From: an uncultured Planctomycetota bacterium
GTDB lineage: Bacteria; Planctomycetota; Planctomycetia; Isosphaerales; Isosphaeraceae
DNA length: 64,000 nt
Assembly (NCBI GenBank): GCA_963845755.1
Contig: CAWJTV010000011.1
Span: forward strand, 608,001 to 672,000
Reading direction: 5' to 3'
Below the pieces are notes generated by a model that did no database searches, was not told where the DNA came from, and saw only the letters and a program-made list of their open reading frames with translations. Position numbers and translations under genes: made by a program. Below, piece by piece: positions 5,768-46,418 of this stretch. The stretch's first letter is position 1, and each line of letters opens with the position of its first letter.

Positions 5768-7622
5768 GGGACCGGCATTGGCCGTTTAGTCGGCGATCGC
5801 GAGTGAAGCCCACGCAGTCCGTCTGCGCGGCGAGGCGGACGCCGGGGACGCTCCGGCATCCGCCCCATGCAGCGGTCGAACGTCACGAGCGTGAGCCCGA
5901 GCACCAGCACGGCGAAGAGCAACGTCACCAGGAGCAGGAGGACTTCCCCGATGTAATACGTCAGACGGCTTTGCGAAGGCGGCCAGGTCGCCGTCTCGAA
6001 TGGCAAGAGCTGGCCGCCGAGTGGGCAGGCACTGGCGAGGATCTGGGAGAAGTATTCTTCCGCCTTGTGGTCATCCGGCCCGAACAGGCCGAGCCAGATC
6101 AGGAACGGTGTGAGGAACTGCAGCTCGAGGATGATGATCCAGGCGAAGGCGACGAAGGCGTAGCTCGCGACGCTCACGGCCACGGCGCGGCCCAGTCGCC
6201 GCATCCAGGTCGCCAGCGCCAGGCCGACGCTCGTGACCGCCGCGCCCTGGACCAGCAGGAATGCCACGGGGAAGATCGCAAACGCGATGCGGTCGATCGC
6301 GGTCAAGGGCGCGGACGGCGGCTGTCGAAGGCCGTGAACCGATTCCGGCGCTCTCACCGCGATCACGATCGCCCCGATCATTGGAAGAAAGGCCAGCGCC
6401 GGCACCACCCGATAAGCTCCCCACCACTTGGCCAGGACGATCCGGTGGGTCGGCAAGGGGGTCGTCATCAGCACGTCGAGGCTGCCGCGCATTCGCTCCT
6501 CGGCCAGCACTGTGGGTGCCATGAGGCTGACCAGCAGCAGGCCGAACGTCGCCTGAAGACCAGCGTCCATCGCGAGAAACCGCTGCCCGTTCGGGTAATC
6601 GTCGGAGATCGTGGCGAGTCCCAAGCCGGTCCCGGCCAGCGAGCCGGCGATGAAGAGGCCCCAGACGACCCGAGCCATCCGCGACGGTCGGCTCCGCCGC
6701 CACTCGCGCCAGAGGACGGGGTTCTTATCCAGTGATGGACTCGGGAACCAGGCGCTCAGCCGCCTGCCGACCTGGCCCAGCCGCGCCGACCATCGCGCAA
6801 TCCTTGTGGCCGATCGGTTCGTCAGATCGGACCGGAGCCGGAGCACGGCGTAGCCGACCAGCCCGGCTGAGAGCACGAGTAGCCCGCCCAGGATCGCCGG
6901 GAGGAACGCACCGCTCACATAAGTCGGCCAGGCGTAAGGGGCCCACGCCAGCACGAACGGGTTGATTTTGATGAACCAGTCGGGCACCACGGGGAGCACC
7001 CCGGGCGACCTCAGCAAGTCCCAGACCACCGGACCCAGCACCCAGGCGGACTCGATCGCATAGACGACCATCAAGACCTCGTGCGTCCTGGTCGCCCGGA
7101 CCGAGACGGCCATGGCCAGCGCGCAGCCGAAGACGGCCAGGACCACCGTGATCAAGGTCAGGGCCAGGATCGCGTCGATGATGACCCCGCCGAGCAGTCC
7201 GGCCAGCGCCAGCACGGGCACCGTGGCGGCCATCAGGGCGAAGACCGGCATCAGCCGCGCGGCCAGCTTGCCCAGCACGATCTCGGTGCTGGATAGGTCG
7301 GTGACCAGCATGTGGGTGAGGCTGCCCGCGCGCGGTCCTGGCAAATCGCGCCGGCGGTCGCGGCCGGTGCGACCAGCAGCACCAGCGCGATCTGGGTCGT
7401 CGCGATGGCGTAGTAGAAGAGCTGACCCAATTCGGCCAGTCGCTGGATCGTGGACGCGCCGCGGTGGTTGGCAGGCATCGTGCCCAGCATGTACCAGGCC
7501 ATCGCCATCGCGACCAGGAGGCCCAGGACGAAGAACGATCGCAACGCGTAGACCTGCCAGCGCCGGGTGGCGGCGATCGATTCGTGGATGAAGACGGGCC
7601 CGGGTCCCCAGCGCATCGACAT
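5764..7622 (-). CDS. ABC-2-type transporter permease with two permease modules; frameshift near 7335
   Basis: APAATAGAIC..R..GSLTHMLVTDLSSTEIVLGKLAARL and LAEERMRGSLDVLMTTPLPTHRIVLAKW; many TM segments. Confidence 0.8.
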
Positions 7623-7760: not shown

Positions 7761-9959
7761 CTAACTTGTGGTGTAACTCCCGTAGATGTTGTCATTGGAG
7801 GTCGTGGCGAAGTTGCCGACGACCTTGGTCTTGTTCGAGAGCGTCACGGTGCCCGCGGAGATATACAGGCCGCCGCCGATCCCCTGACCGCCACCGCTGC
7901 CGCCGTTGGCCGCGTTGAGGGTGATCAGGACGTTGGAGAAGGAGGCCGTGCCGGAGTTGTAGACGCCGCCGCCCTCGCCATTGCCGCCCCCGGCGCCGCC
8001 GATAGCCTGGTTGCCCAAGATCGCGCTATCCGTGACGGTGAGTGTCGAGCCCGAACTGCTCTGGATGCCACCCCCCTCGCCGGAGCCGCTGGTGGCGCCA
8101 TTGGACGCGGCGCCGCCCGTGGCGACATTGCCCGCGATGCTACTGTTGGTCATCGTGAGACTCGCCGATTCGTTCTGGATCGCGCCACCTTCGCCGGGGC
8201 CGGCCTGGCCACCGGCGATGGTGTCGGAGCCGCCGGTCGCGCTGTTGCCGAGGAAGCTGGAGTCGGTCACGGTCGCGGTCGCGCCGAGGAAATTGACCAG
8301 GCCGCCGCCGGCACCGAAACCGCCGAAGGAGCTTCCCGAAGTGGCGCCGGCGCCGCCAATGGCCCTATTGCCGGCCAGGAGGCTGGACGAGAGGTTTAGC
8401 GTGGCATCGGAGTACTGGTTGATGATGGCCCCGCCCAGGCCAAATCCTCCACCGCCTCCGCCCTGGACCAGGTTGTTCGTGAACGTGCTGCCGCTGATGG
8501 TCAGCACGGCTGGCTGATAGCCGCCTGAGGTTGGCGATCGCCCCGCCGACCGCCGGTTGCACCCAGAGTGGAGGCGTTCGAGGCGACAGCCTGATTGCCG
8601 GCGAACAGACTGCCGGTGATGCTGCCCTGCAACAGCCCCTCGAGGTCCAGCGCACCGCCCTGCGCCGGTCCGGTCGAGGTCGCGCTATTGTTGACGAACG
8701 AGCTGTCCGACACCGAGATAGTCGCGAAGAGGTCGGTATGGATGGCGCCGCCGTCGCCGATGCCGTAGGAGCCCGTCCCGATGGCCTGGTTGCCCTCGAA
8801 AGTGGTGTCGGTGATGGTCAGGACGTTCGCCGCCGACTTGACGAAGCCGGTCTCCATCGAGATGCCTGCGCCCAGGGCCAGCGAGCCCGAGGCGGTGTTA
8901 TTCGCGATGCGGCTCCCGGTGACGGTTACGTCCGCGCTCTCGGAGACGATCCCGGCGCCGAAGGCCTGGCCGCCACTCGCACTCTGATCGATCGTGTTGT
9001 TCTCGATCGAGCTGTCGGTGACCGTCAATGTCGGGACGGGCGATTCGTACGGACGCCCGAAGATCTCGACGCCGCCGCCCGTGTTGCCGCTGACCTGGCA
9101 GTTGGTCAGATACAAGTTGGCGTAGGCGTTGTCGACGGCCGCGCTTCCGCCGCCGGAGGTGTTGCCGCTGACCGTGCAGTTGGTGAGACTGACCGCCTGG
9201 CCCGAGCCCACCACGGCGGCGCCGAAGTTGGCCGAGTTGTCGTTGACGGTGCGAGTTGGTGAGACTGACCGCCCCATTGAAACTGGAGATCCACCGCCGA
9301 ATTCGGCCGAGTTGCCGGAGAGGGTGCTGTCGGTGATCGTCAGCGTGCCGCCCGTGTAGACGCCCCCGCCAAGGTCGTTGCTCGTGTTGTGGGAGATCGT
9401 CGAACCGGAGATCGTCAGTGTGCCGTTATTGAAAATCCCGCCGGCGCCGTAAATCCCCGGGGCTGGACACGACGGAGTTGCCCGTGACGACGCAGTCGGA
9501 GACGGTCAGCGTGCCGTAGTTCGTGATGCCTCCGGCACCGTAGCCGCCCGAGATCGCGAACGAGCCGTCGGTGACGGTCAGGCCCGAGATCGTGGCCGTC
9601 ACGCCGCCCGCGACGTCGAACACACTCGACTGGTTATCGCCGCTGACGGAGACGTGCTTGGCCCCGGGCCCGTCGATGTTCACGCTCGTGGCGACCTCCA
9701 ACGGGCCGCTGCTCAGGGTGATCGTCCCGTAGCGCGCTGCGCGGCGAACTTGATCGTGTCGCCCGAGCTGGCCTCGGTGATCGCGGCGCGGAGCGAACCA
9801 GCGCCGTTGTCATTGTCATTGGTGACCGTGATCGTGCTCAGCAGCTCACGGACCTCCAGTGGGATGAGCCGCGGGGCAAACCGCCACACCGGTCGGCGAC
9901 GGGCCCTCCAAGCGGTCGCGGAGAGCTGATTGCTTGTTGCGCGGTCTGTTCATGAACAT
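7761..9959 (-). CDS. Gly-rich beta-helix (Pmp-like GGAI/FxxN) extracellular protein, paralog 1; several frameshifts
   Basis: [23 protein letters not shown] leader; repeated GGAI...LTVTDSxFxGN; C-terminus [23 protein letters not shown]. Confidence 0.75.
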
Positions 9960-36855: not shown

Positions 36856-39800
36856 TCAGCGATAAGTCCTGGCCGGGCGGAAACCGTAGTTGATCATGCG
36901 CATCGACGGCGAGTCCCCGCCAAGGACCGCCGAGCGGTCGTTCGACGGAGGATAGCTGAACGCCCCGCCCCGAAGCATACGAGGGGTGTCGTTATCATAT
37001 ATATCTGATGATATACCAATATCAATTCGCCTGCTTTCTCCGGAAATCCTGGAACGATCCTGACACCACTCCCAGACGTTGCCATGAAGATCGAACAGGC
37101 CGAGATCGTTGGGTTTGAGCCTGCCCACAGGCTGAGTTCTGTCATTGGGCGAGTTCGAGACATACCACCCGTATTTTCCCAGTAACCCCCAGGGCTCGCC
37201 GAAGGAATACCCCGTAGCCGCTCCGGCACGGCATGAGAATTCCCATTCCGCCTCGGTCGGCAGGCGATAGCCCGTTCGGTTCTGAATATCCGAGATCAGC
37301 TTCATGCCCTCGCCGTAGTCTCCCTTCTCATTCGGACCATAGCACCATTGGTCCTCGGGGAATCCCTCCTGCTGGCTCAACCAATTGCAGTAGGCGGCCG
37401 CCGCAAACCAATTGACCGAGTTCATCGGACAGGTTGGCTCAGGACTATATCGCTCTTCGTTCTTGACCTGGAGCCGGGGGTTCTCCTTCAGGCACCGTTG
37501 ATACTGCTCCACGGTGACTTCCTTGTTGGCGATGGCGAAGCTATGACCGATTCGTTCTCGATGTTGGTCCCCTCTCTCCCCCATCTCGGACTCAACCGGA
37601 CCTCGAACGATGACCATCGTCTGACCCTGGCTGTTGACGTACCATTCACGGTGGTTCTCCTGCGAACGTGCTGCACCGTGGTCCCCATCGAGCGTGGGGA
37701 GAGGCCGTTTTGCCAGGTCGTTATCGATCGCCTGGAGTTGAGGCTCACTCCGCCATTGACGGAGCAGCCAGTCCGCCGCCCCGTGAATGCCAGGATCCGG
37801 ATCATTGCGGTAGAGGTCCAGGAGTGTCTTCGCCCAGCCATCCCGCTCGTCGGTCGAAAACCGACCTTCCCCATACTCGCCAAGGCTCAGAATCAACGCC
37901 CTGCGAATGGAAACATCGCCCTCCTGGACCAGTTTGGAAATCAGGAAAACGGGTTCAACTCCCACGGGTCCAAGCCGATGGACCACGTAACTTCGCAGGC
38001 TGGGATCGGGACTGTGTCTCAGCAAGGTCCATGACTTCTCCATTCGTCCCATCCGGATCAAGGCAACTGTTGCGTTCGCTTGCCGCTGGTAGAACTTCTC
38101 CCACGCCTGGTTCTCCAGGTCGGTGGGTATTCCACCTTTTCGGGGAGTCCGCTTCTTCGCGAGTTCGACCTCGAGACGTGGAGCGGTCTGATCCGAACGC
38201 CTTTCGACACTGGGATAGAGTGCGGCGAACGGCTTCTCCGAAGCGTCCATGAGCAGTTGCGCCAACTCATCGGGCCGATCGCGCACGTATTCGGCAAGCG
38301 CACTGGCCGCCAGGGTTCGCTCGGATTCCCCGCGCTTCTCGTCGTGGAAGATGGCGCTCAGAGGCTCGCTGAGCTGGTTGGCAACAGGGCGAAGCGCGTC
38401 GATCCAGCGGGCGACCCCGTAGGCATTCTCGGCGACGAGCCGATTCGCCACGTCGATACGGACCTGCTCCCATCGAGGATTCCTGGGATCGTAGAGTGCC
38501 AGCGCGCCGGCCGCCGGGAGGGCTTTCCCTCGATCTTCCGGTCCCGGCTCCTCCAGCACCCGCCAGCATTCGGCGACGAGGGTGTCCTTGTGCCCGGCCA
38601 GCGCCTGGCGAAGGACCAAGATACTCTGGGCGTCGGCATGGAACAGCCGGTCCATCAGGTAGGGCAATTCCGCGATGCCGTCCCGATCGAGCAGGGCCAG
38701 GGCGGCATGCAAGTGCTTCTCGGATGTCCTGGCCTCCCTGGCTTCGGCATCAGCCTGTCTCAAGAGCGGATCGACCCATTGCCGGTAGGGTTCGAGCTCG
38801 ACGATGATGCCCGGTACGTCCAACAGCGGGGAACCCAGGAGTTTGTCCCGCAACCTCTGGGCTTTCAGCCGGCCATTCGCTTCGTAGCCTCCCCAGGCCA
38901 GGAGGATCAGCATCGTCGCCAGGGTCAACCCTCGAACCCCATACACTCGCCCCGCCCGTCTCATCATCTCGCGTTGCGGATCGGTCCAGTCCTTCTTCCG
39001 GGTCATCAGCCGGATGTTTGCCCACTCCAGGGAGGATGGCAGGTGGCGGTTTTCGGGCCTGGCGTTCCAGAGGGAGGAGCGTTCCGCCAGCCGCAGCTCC
39101 GCACGTCCGCGCCGGGTCTCCCGCTGCTTGCGGGTCAGCCAATCCCGCAGCGAGTGGACCAGGTAGTCGTGGGTGAGCTGGTAGAAGGATTCCGGAAAGG
39201 ATGAAGGATGAAGGCGGAAGGATGAATCAGACCGGTCGGCCTCCGTCGGTGGATTCTTCCCATTCATCCTTCCGCCTTCATCCTTCATCCTTCCGAAGCC
39301 TTCATCCTTTTCCGAGGGGTCTGTCGGCGTGATCAGCCGTAACTCCGGGTCGAGGATGCGGATCAGGTCATCGAAGTCGCCGGGGCGGTTGGCATAGCCG
39401 GAGGCTTCGCACAATTCCTGACGGGACCTCATCTGCCCCTTGATGTCGGTGCCGCTCTCGGGGAGCAGGGCTTTCAAGACGGCCTGGGCGGCCGTCTGGT
39501 GGAAGCGGTGCTCGGCAGGGGCGGTCGCGGCGCTGAAGGTCTCTTCGAGGAACGTCAGGCCGACGCCTTCCATGCCGCCCACCTCCCGGAGCGTGGCCGG
39601 GGTCCAGGGTTTCCCCTTCATCATCTCGGCGAAGAGCGCCAGCCGCACCGAGATGACCTTGCCGTCCTGGGCGAGTCCCGAGATCGCTTGATCCAGAAAC
39701 GTCTCGTGATCCTTGCTGAGATCGCGTACGCTCTCGGGCAATGCCCCGTAGGCCCGCCCGAACGCCATCAGGACCTTCCGGGCATGGCGGGGGTCGAAGA

Positions 39801-41416
39801 GGTCCACCAGGGCGCTGTTGTCGCCTTCGAGCAGGCGGATGTCCAGGTCGCGCAGGAACCGGCTGGCGGCGAGCCAGAAATCATCTCGGACCAGCACCAC
39901 GGCCTGGACGTGCTCGCCATCGCAGTGCCGCAGCGCGGCGACGAGCTCGGCATTCTCCTCACCGCGCCGGGCATGGAGCCACTGCTCGAACTGGTCCAGG
40001 ACCAGCAGCACTTTCCCCTCGGGCGGCAAGAGGCGGCCCCGTCGCAGGTTGGCCAATGAATCGACCAGCCCCGACGATCGGGGCAGCTCCGGACAGACCT
40101 TGCGCACGCCTTTGAGAAGCCGGGCCTCAGTCTCCTCCGGCGTCGCCTCGAGGTAAACCGGCAGGATATGCTTTCCCAGCCGGGGCAAGAGGCCCGCCTT
40201 GACCAGCGACGACTTGCCGCAACCGCTGGGTCCGTAGATCAGCCCCACGCGAAACGTCTGGTCGGGATCGATCGCCTCGATCTTGCGCTTCCAGAACCGG
40301 AGGCTCTCGGGCAGTCCGTCGCGGTCGCGCGGGCCGGGGAGCAGTTCCAGGAAGAAGTCGGCATCGTGCTCGTCGAAGGATCGCAACCCCTTCGGCACGA
40401 TCTTGATCGCTCGTTGATCGGAGTCGGATTGTCGAGAGACGGGCGGCAGTGGAGCGGCTTCCAGGGCTGAGCCGGGCGGCGTGCTGATGGGGACCGCGGG
40501 AGGGGCTGGAGGGGCCGTGGCTGCCTCGGCCTGGAGGAACGCGCGCAGGTCTTCCGCCATGTCCCTGGCGGTGGTGTACCGATCCGAAACCCGCTTCATC
40601 ATGGCCTTGAGGCAGATCCGTTCCAGCTCCCTGGGGATCGTGTCATCGACCTGGCGCGGTGGGCGAGCCTCAGCCCGGGTCACTTGCTCGACGATCTCTC
40701 GAAGCGCGTCCGCCCGGAATGGCTGGCGGCCGGTCAGTAACTCGTAGAAGACCACGCCCAGGCTGAAGACGTCCGAGCGCCCATCGACGAGGTGCCCCTC
40801 GCCGCGGGCCTGTTCGGGGCTCATGTACGCGGGCGTTCCCGCCAGCCCGCTCCCCTTGCCGAAGTCCTCGTCCTTGAGCGCCAGTCCGAAGTCGGCGACC
40901 GAGGGCTGGCCCGAGGCGTCGACGAGGATGTTGGCCGGCTTGATGTCGCGGTGGACCACCCCTCGGGTGTGGGCATAATGCAAGGCGTCGGCGAGGGTGG
41001 CGACCAGCTCCGCCGACTCCCGGAAGGACGGTCGAGCCTGCCGCGATCCGGACCGCCAGGTTGCCGCCTTCCACAAACTTCGATACGACGAAGCAGAATC
41101 CGTCTTCCGTGCGGCCGACATCGAAGACCGGCACGATATGAGGATGGTCGAGCTTGGCCAGCATCCGGGCTTCCGCGAGAAACGCCTCGACATCCTGGGG
41201 ACCTTGGATGTGTTGCCGATTCGGCACCTTGATCGCCACCAACCGGTCGAGGTCGTCGTCGCGGGCCAGATAGACCCGTCCGAACCCGCCCTGACCGAGG
41301 TACCGGTGGATCCGGTAGCGTCCGGTCCTTGTGGGATCGCCATCCGGGGCGCCGCTCGAGCCCGCGGCGTGCGGTTCGACGTCCACGGTTTCCGACAGGT
41401 CCTTCGTCTCATCCAT
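36856..41416 (-). CDS. Ser/Thr kinase - STAND (nSTAND1-like) NTPase - TM - helical region - FGE-sulfatase/CLec protein, copy A; frameshift near 41045
   Basis: GQGGFG, VAIK, HRDIKPAN, DFG, GTPAYMSPEQ; GPSGCGKSS and LVLDQFE; TM GLTLATMLILLAWGG; YRLPTEAEWE, PNDLGLFDLHGNVWEWC, RGG..., GFRPART. Confidence 0.9.
39197..39292. repeat. In-frame (GGATGAA)n inverted repeat with perfect 31-bp arms
   Basis: 39197-39227 is the exact reverse complement of 39262-39292. Confidence 0.92.
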
Positions 41417-41564
41417 CGTTCGGTCCCTGACAGCGATCGATCGCTTTCATGGATGTCAAGCAGAGCCATTGTCGCATCCCCGGCCGGGATGGAACAATGG
41501 GCCACGCGCTTGCCGGCAAGAACGTAGGTCAGGCTTTCCAGCCTGACGTCCGGTCGTGTCAGGC

Positions 41565-41818
41565 TGGTCCGCATCGCTTTCCGCGGCCTGCGGGACCTGG
41601 ATGTGATCCACGATGACCTGGAGGACGGGGCGGAGTTGTTCTACGAGGAAAGGGTGGGTATCCCCGATGACGACCTGGAACGCCGGGTCAAGCCGAAGGA
41701 GGAGCTGGCTGTCGTCGCCCCGAGACGGGTCAGGGCGGACGGGCCGGATTACATGCCCCAGGAAATCGCCGAGATGCCGGAGGCGGAGGGGATCTCGCGT
41801 CCGGTTGACGAGGGCTAA
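41565..41818 (+). pseudogene. 5'-truncated duplicate of the DUF4288-like gene
   Basis: Matches about 36530-36782 (VRIAFRGLRDLDVIHDDLEDGAELFYEERVGIP...GISRPVDEG); the 5' part is absent. Confidence 0.85.
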
Positions 41819-41891
41819 CGCCGGGGTCCCCGATCATCCCATTGTCTGAGGCCGGCCTGAGGGGACGAAGGTCACAAGAGGGTAAAGCCGA

Positions 41892-44800
41892 TCAGTGGTA
41901 AGTCCTGGCGAGGCGAAAACCGCCGTAAGAGCCGCGGACCGACGGCTCGGTCCTGCCACGGTATGCCGACCGGAGGCCCGCCGGCTGAACGACGAACGTC
42001 CCGCCCCGAAGGAGACGAGGGTCCTTGTCAATAATAATTAATGACGGTTTTACATTTATTTCTCTATCTTCTTCTCCAGGCTCCCTGTACCGGTCCTGAC
42101 ACCACTCCCAAAGGTTACCATGAAGATCAAACAGGCCGAGATCGTTGGGTTTGAGCCTGCCCACAGGCTGTGTTCTGTCGTGCGAGTTCGCGTTATACCA
42201 CCCGTATTTTTCCAGTAGCCCCCAGGGCTCGCCGAAGGAATACCCCGTGGCCGCTCCTGCACGGCACGAGTACTCCCATTCCGCCTCGGTCGGCAGGCGA
42301 TAGCCTGTTCGGTCCTGGGTATCCGAGATCAGCTTCATGCCCTCGGCGTAATCTCCCTTCTCATTCGGGCCATAGCACCATTGGTCCTCGGGGAATCCCT
42401 CCTGTTTGCTCAACCAATTGCAGTAGGCGGCGGCAGCATACCAAGTTGCCGCGTTCATCGGGCAGGTTGGCTCAGGACTCAGAAGCTGATTGTTCTTGAC
42501 CTGGATACGGGGGTTCTCTTTCAGAAACCGCTGAAACTGCTCCACGGTGACTTCCTTGCTGGCGATGGCGAAGCGATGACCGATTCGTTCTCGATGCTGA
42601 GTCGCTCCGTCCCCCATATCGAACTGAACCGGACCTCGAACGATGACCATCGTCTGACCTTGGCTGTTGATGTACCATCCACGAGTGTTATCCTGCGAAG
42701 ACGCTGCACCCTGGTCCTCCCCGAGCGTGGGGAGAGGCAGTCTTGCCAGGTCTTTGTCGATCCCTTCGACTTGATCATCGTTCCGCCATTGACGGAGCAG
42801 CCAGTCTGTAGCTCCGTGGATGCCAGGATCCGGATCATTGCGGTAGAGGTCCAGGAATTTCTTCGCCCAGACATCCCGCTCGGTGGTCGAGAGCCGACCT
42901 TCCCCATACGCGCCAAGGCCAAGGATCAACGCCCTGCGAATGGAAACCTCGCCCTCTTGGTGCAGCTTGGCAATCAATAGAGCGGGTTCAACTCCCAGAG
43001 GTCCGAGACGATTGACCAGATAACTTCGCAGGCTGGGATCGGGACTGTGCTTCAGCAGTGTCCACGACTCCTCCATTCGTCCCATACGGATCAAGGCAAC
43101 CGCTGCGGTTGCCTGTCGCTGGTAGAACGTCTCCCATGCCTTGTTATCCACGTCAGTGGGTTCTGCGCCTTTTTGGGAAAGCGGCTTCTTCGCGAGTTCG
43201 ACCTCGAGAAGTGGAGCGGTCTGATCCGACCGTCTTTCGACACTGGGATAGAGTGCGGCGAACGGCTTCTCCGAAGCGTCTATGAGCAGCTCCGCCAATT
43301 CATCGGGCTGATCGCTCGCATATTCGGCAAGCGCACTCGCCGCCAGAGTTCGCTCGGTTTCGGATCGCTCCGTGTCACGGAAGATCGCAGCCAGCGGATC
43401 TCTCAGTTGGTGGGCCATGGGGCGAAGGGCATCGACCCAGCGAGCCAGCACGTAGGCATTCTCGGCAACGAGCCGATTCGCTACGTCGAGACGGACCTTT
43501 TCCCAGAGAGGATTCCTGGGTTCGTAGAGCGCCAATGCGCTGGCCGCCGGGAGTGCTTTCCCCTGATCTTTCGGTTCCGGCTTCTCCAGCACTCGCCAGC
43601 ATTCGGCGACGAGTGTGTCCTGATGACCGGCCAGGGACTGGCGAAGGACCGAGATATCCTGGGCGTCGGCACGGAGCAACCGGGCTTTCAAGTAGGGCAA
43701 TGGCCTCTCGTCCACGGGGAGCAGAGCCAGGGCGGCATGCAACTGCTTCTGGGAGTTCCCGGCCTCTCTGGCTTCGGCATAAGCCTGTTTCAGCAGCGGA
43801 TCGACCCATCCCCGGTAAGGTTCGAGCTCGACAATGATGCTCGGTACGTCCGACAGAGGGGAAGCCAGGAGTTTGTCCCGTAACATCTGGGCTTTCAGGC
43901 GTCCCCTAACCTCGTATCCTCCCCAGACCAGGAGGATCAGCACCGTAGCCAGGGTAAGACCTCGAATCCCATACACTCGCCCCGCCCGTCTCATCATCTT
44001 GCGTTGCGGATCGGTCCAGTCCTTCTTCCGGGTCATCAGCCGGATGGTCGCCCACTCCAGGGAGGATGGCAGGTGGCGGTTTTCGGGCTTGGCGTTCCAG
44101 GAGGAAGAGCGTTCCGCCAGCCGCAGCTCCGCACGTCCGCGCCGGGTCTCCCGCTGCTTGCGGGTTAGCCAATCTCGCAGGGAGTGGACCAGGTAGTCGT
44201 GGGTGAGCTGATAGAAGGATGAAGGACGAAGGATAAAGGATGAATCGGAACCAGGAACGGCCGATTGCTGTTCCGCTGGTTCATCCTTCATCCTTCCGCC
44301 TTCATCCTTTCCTGATGGGTCTGTCGGCGTGATCAGCCGTAACTCCGGGTCGAGGATGTGGATCAGGTCATCGAAGTCGCCGGGGCGGTTGGCATAGCCG
44401 GATGCTTCGAACAGTTCCCGACGGGACCTCATCTGTCCCTTGATGTCGGTGCCGCTCTCGGGCAGCAGGGCTTTCAAGACGGCCTGGGCCGCCTTCTGGT
44501 GGATGCGATGCTCGGGAGGAGCGGTCGAGGCGCTGAAGGTCTCTTCGAGGAACGTCAGGCCGACGCCTTCCGTGCCGCCCACCTCCCTGAGCGTGGCGGG
44601 GGTCCACGGCTTCCCTTTCATCATCTCGGCGAAGAGTGCCAGGCGGACGGAGATGACCTTGCCATCCTGGGCCAATCCCGCAATCGCTTGATCCAGAAAC
44701 GTCTCGTGATCCTTGTGGAGATCGCCCGCGCGTTCGGGCGATGCACCATAGGCCCGCCCGAATGCCAGCAGCACTTTCCGGGCATGACGGAGATCAAAGA

Positions 44801-46418
44801 GGTCCACGAGAGCGCTGTTCTCGCCTTCGACCAGCCTGACTTCCAGGTCGCGCATGAACCGGCTGGCGGCCAACCAGAAATCATCCCGCACCATCGCAAT
44901 CGCTTGAACGTGCTCGCCATCGCAATGACGGAGAGCGGCGACCAGCTCGGTGTTCTCCTCACCGCGCCTGGCATGGAGCCACTGCTCGAACTGGTCCAGG
45001 ACCAGGAGCAACTTCCGCCCGGACTGCAAGAGGCGACCCCTTCGCAAGTTGGCCAGCGAATCGACCAGCCCCGCGGATCGGGACAGTTCCGGACAGACCT
45101 TGCGCACGCCCTTGAGCAGCCGGGCTTCGGTCTCCTCCGGGGTCGCCTCGAGGTAAACCGGCAGGACGTGCCCGGCCAGCCGGGGCAAGAGCCCCGCCTT
45201 GACCAGCGACGACTTGCCGCAGCCACTGGGCCCGTAGATCAGCCCCACGCGAAACGTCTGGTCGGGATCGATCTGCTTCGATCTTTCGCTTCCAGAACCG
45301 GAGGCTCTCGGGCAGTCCGTCCCGGTCGCGCGGGCCGGGGAGCAGCTCCAGGAAGAAGTCGGCATCGTGCTCGTCGAAGGATCGCAGGCCCTTCGGCACG
45401 ATCTTGATCGGCTCGCTGATCGGAGTCGGATTGTCGGGAGGTGGGCGGGAGTGGAGCGGCTTCCAGGGTTGATCCGGGCGGCGTGTTGATGGGAGCCGCG
45501 GGGGCGTCAGGCGGGACCGTGGCTGCCGCGGCCTGGAGGAACACGCGAAGGTCTTCCGCCATGTCCCTGGCGGTGGTGTACCGATCCGACACCCGCTTCA
45601 TCATGGCCTTGAGACAGATCCGTTCCAGCTCCCTGGGGATCGTGTCATCGACCTGGCGCGGTGGGCGAGCCTCAGCCCGGGTTACTTGGTCGATGATCTC
45701 TCGGTAGCGAATCACCCCGGAATGGCCGGCGACCGGTCAGTAGCTCGTAGAGGACCACGCCCAGGCTGAAGATGTCCGAACGCCCATCGACGAGGTGCCC
45801 CTCGCCGCGGGCCTGCTCGGGGCTCATGTAGGCGGGCGTTCCCGCCAGGCCGCCCCCCTTGCCGAAGTCCTCGTCCTTGAGTGCCAGTCCGAAGTCGGCG
45901 ATCGAGGGTTGACTCGAGGCGTCGATGAGGATGTTAGCGGGCTTGATGTCGCGGTGGACCAGCCCCCGGGTGTGGGCATAATGCAAGGCGTCGGCGATGG
46001 TGGCGACCAGCTCCGCCGACTCCCGGAAGGACGGTCGAGCCTGTCGGATCCGGACCGCCAGGTCGCTGCCTTCGACGAACTTGGACACGACGAAGCAGAG
46101 TCCGTCGTCTGTGCGGCCGACGTCGAAGACCGGCACGATCTGGGGATGGTCGAGCTTGGCCAGGGTCCGGGCTTCAACCAGGAATGCCTCGACATCCTCG
46201 GGGCGACTGATGCGTTCCGGCCTCGGCACCTTGATCGCCACCGGCCGGTCGAGGTCGTCGTCGCGGGCCAGATAGACCCGTCCGAACCCGCCCTGACCCA
46301 GGCGCCCGAGGATGCGGTAACGCCCGATCTTCGTGGGATCGCCATCCGGGGAGCCACTCGAACCCGCGGCGGATGGTTCCAGGTCTGCCGTTTCCGATAG
46401 GTCCTTCGTCTCATTCAT
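41892..46418 (-). CDS. Ser/Thr kinase - STAND NTPase - TM - FGE-sulfatase/CLec protein, copy B; frameshifts near 45710, 45410 and 45280
   Basis: Same motifs as copy A and colinear with it along its whole length. Confidence 0.9.
44215..44309. repeat. In-frame (GGATGAA)n inverted repeat with 30-bp arms and 3 mismatches
   Basis: AAGGATGAAGGACGAAGGATAAAGGATGAA ... TTCATCCTTCATCCTTCCGCCTTCATCCTT. Confidence 0.88.

What the first reader, a model, noticed from the sequence alone, without database searches (positions are those of the whole stretch)
36856..42095. DGR-like hypervariable CLec tails on twin kinase-STAND receptors
Seen: the paralogs are near-identical up to GNxWEWCQDR, then diverge in the last ~65 codons (36856-37050 vs 41892-42090) around fixed anchors (LRGG.F, RSA, PS.R, GFR.ART). 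Many aligned codons differ only at positions 1-2 and keep a third C/T: AGC/GTC, TAT/GTT, AAC/GGC, GAC/CTC, GTC/TAC, GAC/ACC, AAC/TAC, TAC/GGC. Both tails have an unusually AT-rich patch, and both share TGATCGGCTTTAC at the stop. Known: DGRs mutate adenines of AAY-rich templates into C-terminal FGE/CLec variable regions, and targets can be remote from the RT. Inference: these are diversified sensors coupling extracytoplasmic ligand binding to a STAND NTPase and kinase, an immune-receptor-like design. Caveats: a few synonymous third-position differences show ordinary drift too, and no RT or template was found here.
Basis: partly seen in the sequence, partly recalled or inferred. Interest (0 to 1): 0.85.

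Follow-up and report, generated by a model that had tools for sequence, protein, structure and literature searches.

The report
Orphaned DGR variable tails on sensors
Two neighbouring sensor genes end in short stretches that were once rewritten by a mutagenic retroelement still present in a sister species but missing from this genome, a state already described in other bacteria.

Summary
Two tandem kinase-nSTAND1-HEAT-FGE(CLec) genes are about 87% identical (not near-identical). They diverge sharply in their last ~65 codons.

That tail has two parts. A 33-codon stretch (LRGG..GFR) has dN/dS of 1.6-9.7 with normal or low dS, and its changes sit at codon positions 1-2. Upstream of it lies a 27-codon AT-rich loop that no template covers.

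This 14.27 Mb assembly (87.9% complete) holds no template repeat, DGR-type reverse transcriptase or bAvd. The same-genus genome G001 holds a full cassette (target, bAvd, RT, TR), and its adjacent VR differs from the TR only at adenines (7 of 7). TRs 92-94% identical to it occur in three other genera.

Against these TRs, tails A and B differ mostly at TR adenines: 14 of 25 and 19 of 25 adenine sites, against 7 of 68 other sites each. Altered AAY codons keep the template's third base.

At the syntenic site this genome has about 144 nt where G001 has about 2.1 kb of avd-RT-TR.

Verdict: these are true DGR variable regions, most likely frozen after loss of the cassette. This is a known kind (nSTAND-CLec DGR targets; targets in isolates lacking a DGR). 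Interest is modest.

The parts
36856..41416 (-). Gene A: Ser/Thr kinase, nSTAND1 NTPase, one hydrophobic segment, HEAT-like repeats and a C-terminal FGE-sulfatase (CLec-fold) domain. One frameshift lies near 41044 in the kinase N-lobe.
   Evidence: Pfam gives Pkinase 8.5e-29, nSTAND1 2.2e-19 and FGE-sulfatase 5.2e-37. The start MDETKDL is at 41416. The extra base relative to B is at 41044.
41892..46418 (-). Gene B: tandem paralog of A with the same architecture. It has three single-base frameshifts, near 45705, 45411 and 45274.
   Evidence: Established. The in-frame part gives Pfam nSTAND1 6.6e-20 and FGE-sulfatase 6.1e-39. The kinase is read in other frames.
36886..36985 (-). Variable region of gene A. 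It corresponds to the mutable part of the template repeat found in relatives (CCTCGT.. LRGG .. to the codon before GFR).
   Evidence: It aligns to the G001 TR (L057 13573-13694) at 81%. Against the majority TR it has 14 of 25 mismatches at adenine sites and 7 of 68 at other sites. Six of 8 altered AAY codons keep the template's third base.
36859..36885 (-). 3' end of VR A (GGTTTCCGC..AGGACTTA..). It resembles the 3' end of the working VR in G001 and differs from the TR there, so it is IMH-like.
   Evidence: Seen in the alignments. Function was not tested.
36986..37053 (-). AT-rich, untemplated loop of gene A between WEWCQDR and the VR.
   Evidence: It is 58% A+T. Loop dS is saturated (0.92 to not computable) and dN/dS is about 0.5-0.6. 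TR homology starts only at CCCTCGT.
41922..42021 (-). Variable region of gene B.
   Evidence: It is 76% identical to the G001 TR. It has 19 of 25 mismatches at adenine sites and 7 of 68 at other sites. Ten of 10 altered AAY codons keep the template's third base, P 1.4e-4.
41895..41921 (-). 3' end of VR B, IMH-like.
   Evidence: Seen in the alignments. Function was not tested.
42022..42089 (-). AT-rich, untemplated loop of gene B.
   Evidence: It is 59% A+T.
38887..38931 (-). Hydrophobic segment of A (GLTLATMLILLAWGG), a possible single membrane helix.
   Evidence: No 19-residue Kyte-Doolittle window exceeds 1.6 in A. The homologous segment of B (43917-43961) reaches 1.74.
40207..40245 (-). Walker A / P-loop of the nSTAND1 NTPase of A (GLIYGPSGCGKSS). 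The B copy is at 45207-45245.
   Evidence: Found.

Best explanation
The last ~33 codons of both genes are variable regions of a diversity-generating retroelement (DGR). A reverse transcriptase with bAvd copied an AAC-rich template repeat into cDNA, misreading adenines. The cDNA replaced the end of the CLec/FGE sensor domain. This randomised about 13 binding-site codons and left the scaffold codons intact.

The proteins have a tripartite NLR-like layout: a Ser/Thr kinase (output), an nSTAND1 NTPase (switch) and a HEAT + CLec domain (ligand sensor).

The DGR is ancestral in this planctomycete family and survives in the sister species. In this genome the avd-RT-TR cassette has been deleted from its ancestral locus and is not elsewhere in the assembly. 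The two tails are therefore most likely frozen, orphaned VRs that now evolve by ordinary mutation.

Shown: homology to a working TR/VR pair, the adenine-specific mismatch pattern, the absence of the machinery, and the syntenic gap. Inferred: the past homing events, the time of loss, and the sensor function.
For: 1. A working DGR exists in the same-genus genome G001.
- The locus holds a TIR-nSTAND1-FGE target, bAvd (PF22296, 1.2e-21), an RT (PF00078, 5.5e-27; 36% identical to BPP-1 Brt, E 2.3e-41 for one G001 RT; motif GNQTSQFF) and a TR.
- The adjacent VR differs from the TR at 7 adenines and at 0 other bases.

2. The TR is conserved. It is 94%, 93% and 92% identical in three other genera.

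3. Tails A, B and the G001 ortholog match this TR at 81%, 76% and 85-87%.
- Over 93 nt against four TRs, mismatches at adenines against other bases are 12-15 vs 7-10 for A, 18-19 vs 7-8 for B, and 11-14 vs 3-4 for G1.
- Fisher p runs from 1.4e-4 to 4e-9 in 12 of 12 comparisons.

4. Control for the objection that these are simply the variable codons.
- Within the 10 AAY template codons, positions 1-2 changed 36 of 60 times and position 3 changed 3 of 30 times.
- Altered codons keep the template's third base in 6 of 8 (A), 10 of 10 (B) and 6 of 7 (G1). Codon usage predicts 2.9, 4.3 and 2.9, giving P 0.012, 1.4e-4 and 0.011.

5. dN/dS is 1.6-9.7 in the VR, with dS 0.04-0.24. The body has dN/dS 0.33-0.40 and dS 0.26-0.31.

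6. The machinery is absent here.
- 42 PF00078 matches were found. The frames of 37 places were read by eye. I judged most to be group II intron-like and the rest retron-like or unclassified; no tool classified them. The other 5 places are second stretches of the same frames.
- The best Brt match is only 2.2e-10.
- The G001 RT finds at most 27% identity, and the G001 bAvd finds no hit.
- The DGR RT motif occurs 0 times in six frames, against 19 of 20 relatives' RT loci.
- All 6 TR-like copies are coding tails. A custom scan for a TR found only coding tails.

7. The syntenic gap. G000 C11:829892-834414 matches the G001 target gene at 88%. G001 then has about 2.1 kb of avd-RT-TR where G000 has about 144 nt, and homology resumes after that.

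8. The best solved-structure match of the domain is the DGR variable protein TvpA (2y3c, E 2.1e-18). It scores ahead of the true FGE enzymes, at about 1e-7.
Against: - No TR from this genome exists to compare with. The template is borrowed from other genomes.
- A and B each differ from the majority TR at 7 of 68 non-adenine sites. Over 103 nt against the G001 TR the counts are 8 and 9. A freshly homed VR would show about 0.
- In A these differences are mostly nonsynonymous transversions, including two AAC to ATG changes that need C to G. Adenine mutagenesis does not explain them.
- Three synonymous A-B differences in conserved VR codons match the body's pS (about 0.25), so no recent homogenisation of both copies is visible.
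- The assembly is 87.9% complete, so an unassembled DGR cannot be excluded.
- The AT-rich loop, which makes up 27 of the ~65 divergent codons, is not explained by this model.
- Frameshifts in both genes leave it open whether they are functional.
Confidence: 0.75

Rival explanations
1. The tails are still being diversified in trans. A DGR (RT, bAvd, TR) lies in the unassembled ~12% of the genome or on an unbinned element, and A and B are remote targets.
For: - The assembly is 87.9% complete.
- Remote targets served in trans are documented in Thiohalocapsa (PMC10907252, passages read).
- In G001 the ortholog lies about 135 kb from the cassette on the same contig and shows 11-14 adenine-site mismatches against 3-4 others.
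- A and G1 share unusually low synonymous divergence in the VR: sd 1.0 over 25.8 synonymous sites, against body pS 0.217. This fits homing after the species split.
Against: - The cassette's ancestral site is contiguous in this assembly and lacks it.
- No RT, bAvd or TR fragment turned up anywhere, including contig ends.
- A and B each carry 7 of 68 non-adenine mismatches and differ from each other at non-adenine sites about as much as the gene bodies do.
- One contig from a second soil sample lies on 36913-37120 with only 9 other letters and 6 gap letters in 202. This is weak evidence: depth is 2.9.
Confidence: 0.12
2. No retroelement was involved. The tails are the ordinary hypervariable binding loops of a CLec domain, diverging under positive selection after tandem duplication. 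They resemble DGR templates only through shared ancestry of the domain.
For: - The anchors (LRGG, RSA, PS.R, GFR) are family-wide motifs.
- Other paralogs at about 52% protein identity show the same layout.
- A- and B-lineage non-adenine changes exist.
- In two of three pairs, ts/tv in the VR does not differ from the body (p 0.16 and 1.0).
Against: - Third-base retention in altered AAY codons exceeds the codon-usage expectation: B 10 of 10, P 1.4e-4.
- Positions 1-2 changed 36 of 60 times against 3 of 30 for position 3.
- dS in the VR is not raised while dN is 4-6 times the body's.
- A bona fide TR/VR pair with the same sequence frame lies in the sister genome.
Confidence: 0.08
3. Mosaic origin: the tails were swapped in by gene conversion from other FGE paralogs of the genome.
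For: - The divergent island is bounded by similar sequence on both sides.
- The genome holds 21 FGE-domain matches at E 1e-20 or better.
Against: - No other paralog tail in the genome is a close donor. The best non-self matches of the tails are 72-82% over 59-147 nt.
- Conversion would not produce an adenine-specific pattern against the TR.
Confidence: 0.05

Closest known systems
nSTAND1/NACHT-CLec DGR targets of Thiohalocapsa PB-PSB1 and clade 5D DGRs (Dore et al. 2024, PMC10907252; passages read)
   Same: The C-terminal FGE-type CLec domain carries the VR, with a central nSTAND1 NTPase. N-terminal effector domains in that work include TIR and Pkinase. Targets are duplicated, some are remote and served in trans, and some loci are incomplete. 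The authors propose an antigen-sensor role.
   Different: The lineage here is Planctomycetota, judged from record titles of the nearest RT relatives. This genome lacks RT, Avd and TR altogether. No population data show diversification.
Treponema denticola TvpA and target genes in isolates lacking the core DGR (Nimkulrat et al. 2016, PMC4891356; passages read)
   Same: TvpA is the best solved-structure match (2y3c, E 2.1e-18). That paper describes isolates with neither RT nor TR whose target genes still carry VRs. Those VRs differ from the TRs of DGR-bearing isolates. This is the state inferred here.
   Different: TvpA-type targets are lipoproteins without kinase or STAND domains. Here the comparison is between species of one genus, not between isolates.
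Kinase-FGE DGR targets of cyanobacteria (Vallota-Eastman et al. 2020, PMC7517822; only the search listing and start of the abstract were seen)
   Same: DGRs diversify regulatory proteins such as kinases.
   Different: The body of the paper was not read here, so details are recalled, not checked. The STAND module and the DGR loss are features of the present case.
Bordetella phage BPP-1 Mtd/Brt/bAvd/TR (record AY029185)
   Same: The mechanism class is the same: adenine mutagenesis of a TR copy into a C-terminal CLec VR. The G001 RT is 36% identical to Brt, and bAvd is present.
   Different: The BPP-1 system is a phage tail-fibre target acting in cis. Here the targets are chromosomal multi-domain sensors with several paralogous targets.

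Membership tests
DGR variable region (target of mutagenic retrohoming) | A cognate template repeat in the same genome that differs from the VR only at template adenines | tested here: not met
   No TR was found in G000. blastn of the tails, a custom invariant-position scan and a TR-as-query search (6 hits) all return only coding tails.
DGR variable region (target of mutagenic retrohoming) | Adenine-specific mismatch pattern against a template, here templates from relatives | tested here: met
   Against the majority TR, A has 14/25 vs 7/68 mismatches, B 19/25 vs 7/68 and G1 13/25 vs 3/68. All 12 comparisons with 4 TRs give p of 1.4e-4 or lower. The match is not perfect: a working VR in G001 shows 7 vs 0.
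DGR variable region (target of mutagenic retrohoming) | A DGR-clade reverse transcriptase in the genome | tested here: not met
   42 PF00078 matches were found and none is DGR-like on reading. The best Brt match is E 2.2e-10. The G001 RT finds at most 27% identity. The motif scan gives 0 hits against 19 of 20 in relatives. The genome is 87.9% complete.
DGR variable region (target of mutagenic retrohoming) | An accessory protein (bAvd) beside the RT | tested here: not met
   The G001 bAvd has no tblastn hit in G000. There are 5 PF05635 matches, none on the same stretch as an RT match.
DGR variable region (target of mutagenic retrohoming) | VR at the C-terminal end of a CLec/FGE-fold domain | tested here: met
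   PF03781 gives 5.2e-37 and 6.1e-39, reaching the last residues. TvpA (2y3c) is the top solved match.
DGR variable region (target of mutagenic retrohoming) | IMH and a downstream hairpin that direct homing | tested here: inconclusive
   The 3' ends of A and B resemble the 3' end of the G001 cis VR and differ from the TR end. The GC hairpin seen after the cis VR and its G000 ortholog has no clear counterpart after A or B.
DGR variable region (target of mutagenic retrohoming) | Within-population variation confined to template-adenine sites | tested here: inconclusive
   Only Logan contigs of soil runs at about 2-3x depth were available. They cannot show minor variants.
STAND-NTPase (NLR-like) sensor with N-terminal effector and C-terminal sensor | nSTAND1 NTPase with a P-loop, flanked by an effector domain and a ligand-binding domain | tested here: met
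   nSTAND1 gives 2.2e-19 and 6.6e-20. Pkinase gives 8.5e-29 at the N-terminus, and HEAT/FGE lie at the C-terminus. The Walker A motif GPSGCGKS is present. Activity and intactness are not testable, because of the frameshifts.

The most novel reading that the evidence does not exclude
One highly conserved template (92-94% identical across genera) may serve, in trans, a whole repertoire of nSTAND1 sensors with different output domains. In this genus these are kinases, and TIR in the cassette-adjacent target. In this 14 Mb genome the system might still run from an unassembled element. Tails A and B would then be live members of a somatically diversified, NLR-like receptor repertoire in Planctomycetota, not fossils.

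A weaker variant: after DGR loss the frozen tips kept evolving under positive selection (the non-adenine nonsynonymous transversions in A). That would be a natural example of a diversified receptor set becoming germline-fixed.
Probability: 0.12. Interest if true: 0.55.

Novelty: new member of a known kind. Interest (0 to 1): 0.33.

Why it matters
The case confirms that a DGR signature can be recognised from sequence alone.

It adds a planctomycete genus to the bacteria whose NLR-like STAND sensors carry DGR-written tips.

It gives a clean sister-species pair: one genome with a working cassette, and one with a roughly 2 kb gap at the same site. Such a pair could be used to date DGR loss and to ask how former variable regions evolve once frozen.

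It does not reveal a new mechanism. STAND-CLec DGR targets, and targets surviving in genomes without a DGR, are both in print (PMC10907252, PMC4891356). Notes of this scan report similar orphan kinase-FGE targets in three other genomes.

Tried and rejected
- **Read-level test of ongoing diversification.** One search found 6 soil runs with a share of sampled words of at most 0.20. Laying 4 of the 6 gave only Logan contigs at about 2-3x depth, with few pieces on the tails. This gives no verdict on SNVs.
- **The 'left out 1' rows near 45278 and 45412-45413 in run X3.** These may be gene-A-like contigs cross-laid on B at the 85% threshold. They do not settle whether the frameshifts are errors.
- **Metagenome scan for close orthologs with other tails.** 597 of 608 candidate stretches encode relatives and the best 80 were kept. 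The best identity is 54%, so no population series is available.
- **Other paralog tails as template.** The candidates were C11:834207, C25 and C33. All lie at the ends of FGE reading frames, and they mismatch the tails at non-adenine sites.
- **Second DGR of G001 (L058) as source.** Its repeat pair is 7466-7597 and 9239-9369. It shares only a 19-nt match with the tails, so it was rejected.
- **Hairpin downstream of VR A and B.** Nothing convincing was found.
- **Avd-family hits in G000.** There are 5, and none lies next to an RT.
- **Literature search for 'orphan' VRs.** It gave mostly irrelevant hits. One useful paper was read in passages.
- **Earlier notes on this genome.** None exist.

Full report
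**What is there**

The window is G000:C11:608001-672000 of a 14.27 Mb, 49-contig assembly rated 87.9% complete.
- Two tandem minus-strand genes end at 36856 (A) and 41892 (B).
- Pfam finds Pkinase, nSTAND1, weak HEAT and a C-terminal FGE-sulfatase domain in A. The in-frame part of B gives nSTAND1 plus FGE-sulfatase.
- Reading the other frames shows that both genes start with a complete kinase N-lobe, at 41416 and 46418. A has one single-base frameshift and B has three.
- All four indels lie beside or within a few bases of a GATC, not in homopolymers.
- The G001 ortholog and other genes in both genomes also show single-base shifts. Assembly error is therefore as likely as pseudogenisation, and I could not decide between them.
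- One hydrophobic segment follows the STAND module. It passes a Kyte-Doolittle threshold of 1.6 in B only. An extracytoplasmic position for the sensor is possible but not shown.

**Check of the observation**

- The paralogs are about 87% identical in DNA, not near-identical. Body dS is 0.31 and dN 0.10.
- Identity drops to 0.61-0.72 in the three 90-nt windows covering the tail. It returns to 0.87 after the stop, where both share TGATCGGCTTTAC.
- The tail is two things.
  - The first 27 codons after WEWCQDR form a loop of 58-59% A+T. Synonymous and nonsynonymous change are both saturated there (dN/dS 0.5-0.6).
  - The next 33 codons (LRGG to GFR) behave differently. dS is 0.04-0.24, no higher than the body. 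dN is 0.37-0.57, so dN/dS is 1.6-9.7.
  - In those 33 codons the differences fall on codon positions 1-2 far more than in the body (p 0.002, 0.007, 0.036). One of the three pairs shows a strong excess of transversions (3:20 against 93:86, p 3e-4). The other two pairs do not.

**Search for the machinery in this genome**

- blastn of both tails finds only other FGE-gene tails.
- I ran a scan for windows that keep the 76 positions invariant among three tails and carry A at the 44 variable positions. It also returns only coding tails.
- PF00078 gives 42 matches. I read the frames of 37 places; the other 5 are second stretches of the same frames. By eye most look group II intron-like and five look retron-like or unclassified. 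None has the DGR motif.
- Five Avd-family matches stand apart from any RT.

**The template turns up in relatives**

I took the Brt reverse transcriptase from the BPP-1 record and searched 121 genomes of the family.
- 18 genomes have a match at E 1e-29 or better, including the same-genus genome G001. G000's best match is 2.2e-10.
- Around one G001 RT (L057 = G001:C13:400000-418000) lie four copies of a ~125-nt repeat.
  - One copy ends a TIR-nSTAND1-FGE gene.
  - Next come bAvd (PF22296, 1.2e-21) and the RT.
  - Just after the RT sits an AAC-rich copy that is not a gene tail. This is the TR.
- The adjacent VR differs from this TR at 7 adenines, at no other base, and by one single-base gap. This is a canonical DGR.
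- TRs 94%, 93% and 92% identical to it lie beside the RTs of three other genera.
- The RT clade is widespread in MAGs titled Gemmataceae, Isosphaeraceae and other Planctomycetota, and beyond.

**The window's tails against that template**

- Tail A, tail B and the tail of the single G001 ortholog match the TR at 81%, 76% and 85-87%. The ortholog (L012) lies about 135 kb from the cassette on the same contig.
- I compared 93 nt (codons 1-31) against each of four TRs. Mismatches at TR adenines against other bases are:
  - A: 12-15 vs 7-10
  - B: 18-19 vs 7-8
  - G1: 11-14 vs 3-4
- All 12 comparisons give Fisher p between 1.4e-4 and 4e-9.
- Template adenines sit in the binding-site codons, so ordinary selection could mimic part of this. 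I therefore looked inside the ten AAY template codons.
  - Positions 1-2 changed 36 of 60 times. Position 3 changed 3 of 30 times.
  - Among codons altered at positions 1-2, the template's third base is kept in 6 of 8 (A), 10 of 10 (B) and 6 of 7 (G1).
  - The genes' own codon usage predicts 2.9, 4.3 and 2.9. This gives P 0.012, 1.4e-4 and 0.011.
- The domain's best solved relative is the DGR variable protein TvpA (2y3c, E 2.1e-18).

**Lost, not merely distant**

- G000 C11:829892-834414 is the 88% ortholog of the cassette-adjacent target of G001, down to a shared GC hairpin after the stop.
- G001 then has about 2.1 kb of bAvd-RT-TR where G000 has about 144 nt. Homology then resumes.
- Three other genera also keep a VR-like and a TR-like repeat copy within the ~3.5 kb locus around their RT. 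The gap in G000 is therefore best read as a deletion; this polarity is inferred.
- The G001 RT finds nothing above 27% identity in G000. The G001 bAvd finds nothing.
- A motif that hits 19 of 20 relatives' RT loci hits G000 zero times in six frames.
- A and B each differ from the majority TR at 7 of 68 non-adenine sites. This rate is similar to the general DNA divergence of these genes.
- B carries three synonymous changes in conserved VR codons.
- A and G1 share unusually few synonymous differences in the VR: sd 1.0 over 25.8 sites, against pS 0.217 in the body. This suggests homing went on for a while after the species split.
- The picture that fits best: diversification in the ancestor and early in both lineages, then loss of the cassette in G000, then drift.

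**What remains unexplained**

- The AT-rich, untemplated loop in front of each VR also occurs in other paralogs. Its saturated divergence has no explanation.
- In A, six of the seven non-adenine differences are nonsynonymous transversions, and two of them create ATG. This could be selection after freezing, or a lost local TR variant.
- The frameshifts remain unresolved.

**Known or new**

- DGR targets combining nSTAND1 or NACHT with CLec/FGE tips have been described for Thiohalocapsa and related DGR clades. That work also covers TIR or kinase domains, duplicated and remote targets, and incomplete loci (PMC10907252, passages read; PMC7159879, passages read).
- Target genes that keep VRs in isolates with neither RT nor TR have been described for Treponema denticola (PMC4891356, passages read).
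- Notes of this scan report orphan kinase-FGE DGR targets in three other genomes. I did not test those.
- I saw only listings for PMC7517822 and PMC8144416.
- This is therefore a new member of a known kind. Its useful feature is the sister-species pair, one with and one without the cassette.

**Verdict**

- The tails are DGR-written: about 0.85.
- They are now orphaned and frozen in this genome, as a composite statement: 0.75.
- They are still active from an unassembled element: 0.12.
- No DGR was involved: 0.08.
- Interest: 0.33.

Noticed in passing
window 41044 (A); 45705, 45411, 45274 (B): All four single-base frameshift indels that separate A and B reading frames lie beside or within a few bases of a GATC, not in homopolymers. 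Similar one-base shifts occur in the G001 ortholog and inside VR copies of both genomes. This may be a systematic assembly error at a methylated motif, or real decay.
   Followed up: partly
window 36986-37053 and 42022-42089: A 58-59% A+T loop, rich in rare ATA/ATT codons, lies directly upstream of each VR and outside the template. It shows saturated synonymous divergence and indels. Similar AT-rich loops precede the VR in other paralogs and in G001 targets. The cause is unknown.
   Followed up: partly
G000 C11:834196-834326 (outside the window) and C11:834415-834558: This is the ortholog of the G001 cassette-adjacent target. It has an N-rich, barely mutated VR: 92% identical to the G001 TR, with 4 adenine and 2 other mismatches. 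About 144 nt follow it where G001 has bAvd-RT-TR. A conserved GC hairpin lies about 70 nt after the stop in both genomes.
   Followed up: yes
L057 15085-15396 (G001:C13): This is a second, degenerate copy of the RT 3' end plus TR. It is 85% identical to L057 13385-13694, with 13 adenine and 6 other mismatches and a one-base gap. It suggests a partial duplication of the cassette in G001. A further TR-like copy lies at G001:C13:425129.
   Followed up: no
L057 7554-8927 (G001:C13): The cassette-adjacent target in G001 carries a TIR domain (PF13676, 9.6e-12) in front of nSTAND1 instead of a kinase. Paralogous sensors served by one template type therefore differ in output domain.
   Followed up: partly
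G000 genome, many contigs: There are 42 PF00078 matches. By eye most look like near-identical group II intron-type RT copies, several of them cut at contig ends. This points to active or recently active mobile introns that fragment the assembly.
   Followed up: no
L058 7466-7597 and 9239-9369 (G001:C12): A second DGR in G001 has a 92%-identical repeat pair of a different sequence type, beside an RT that is 36% identical to Brt.
   Followed up: no
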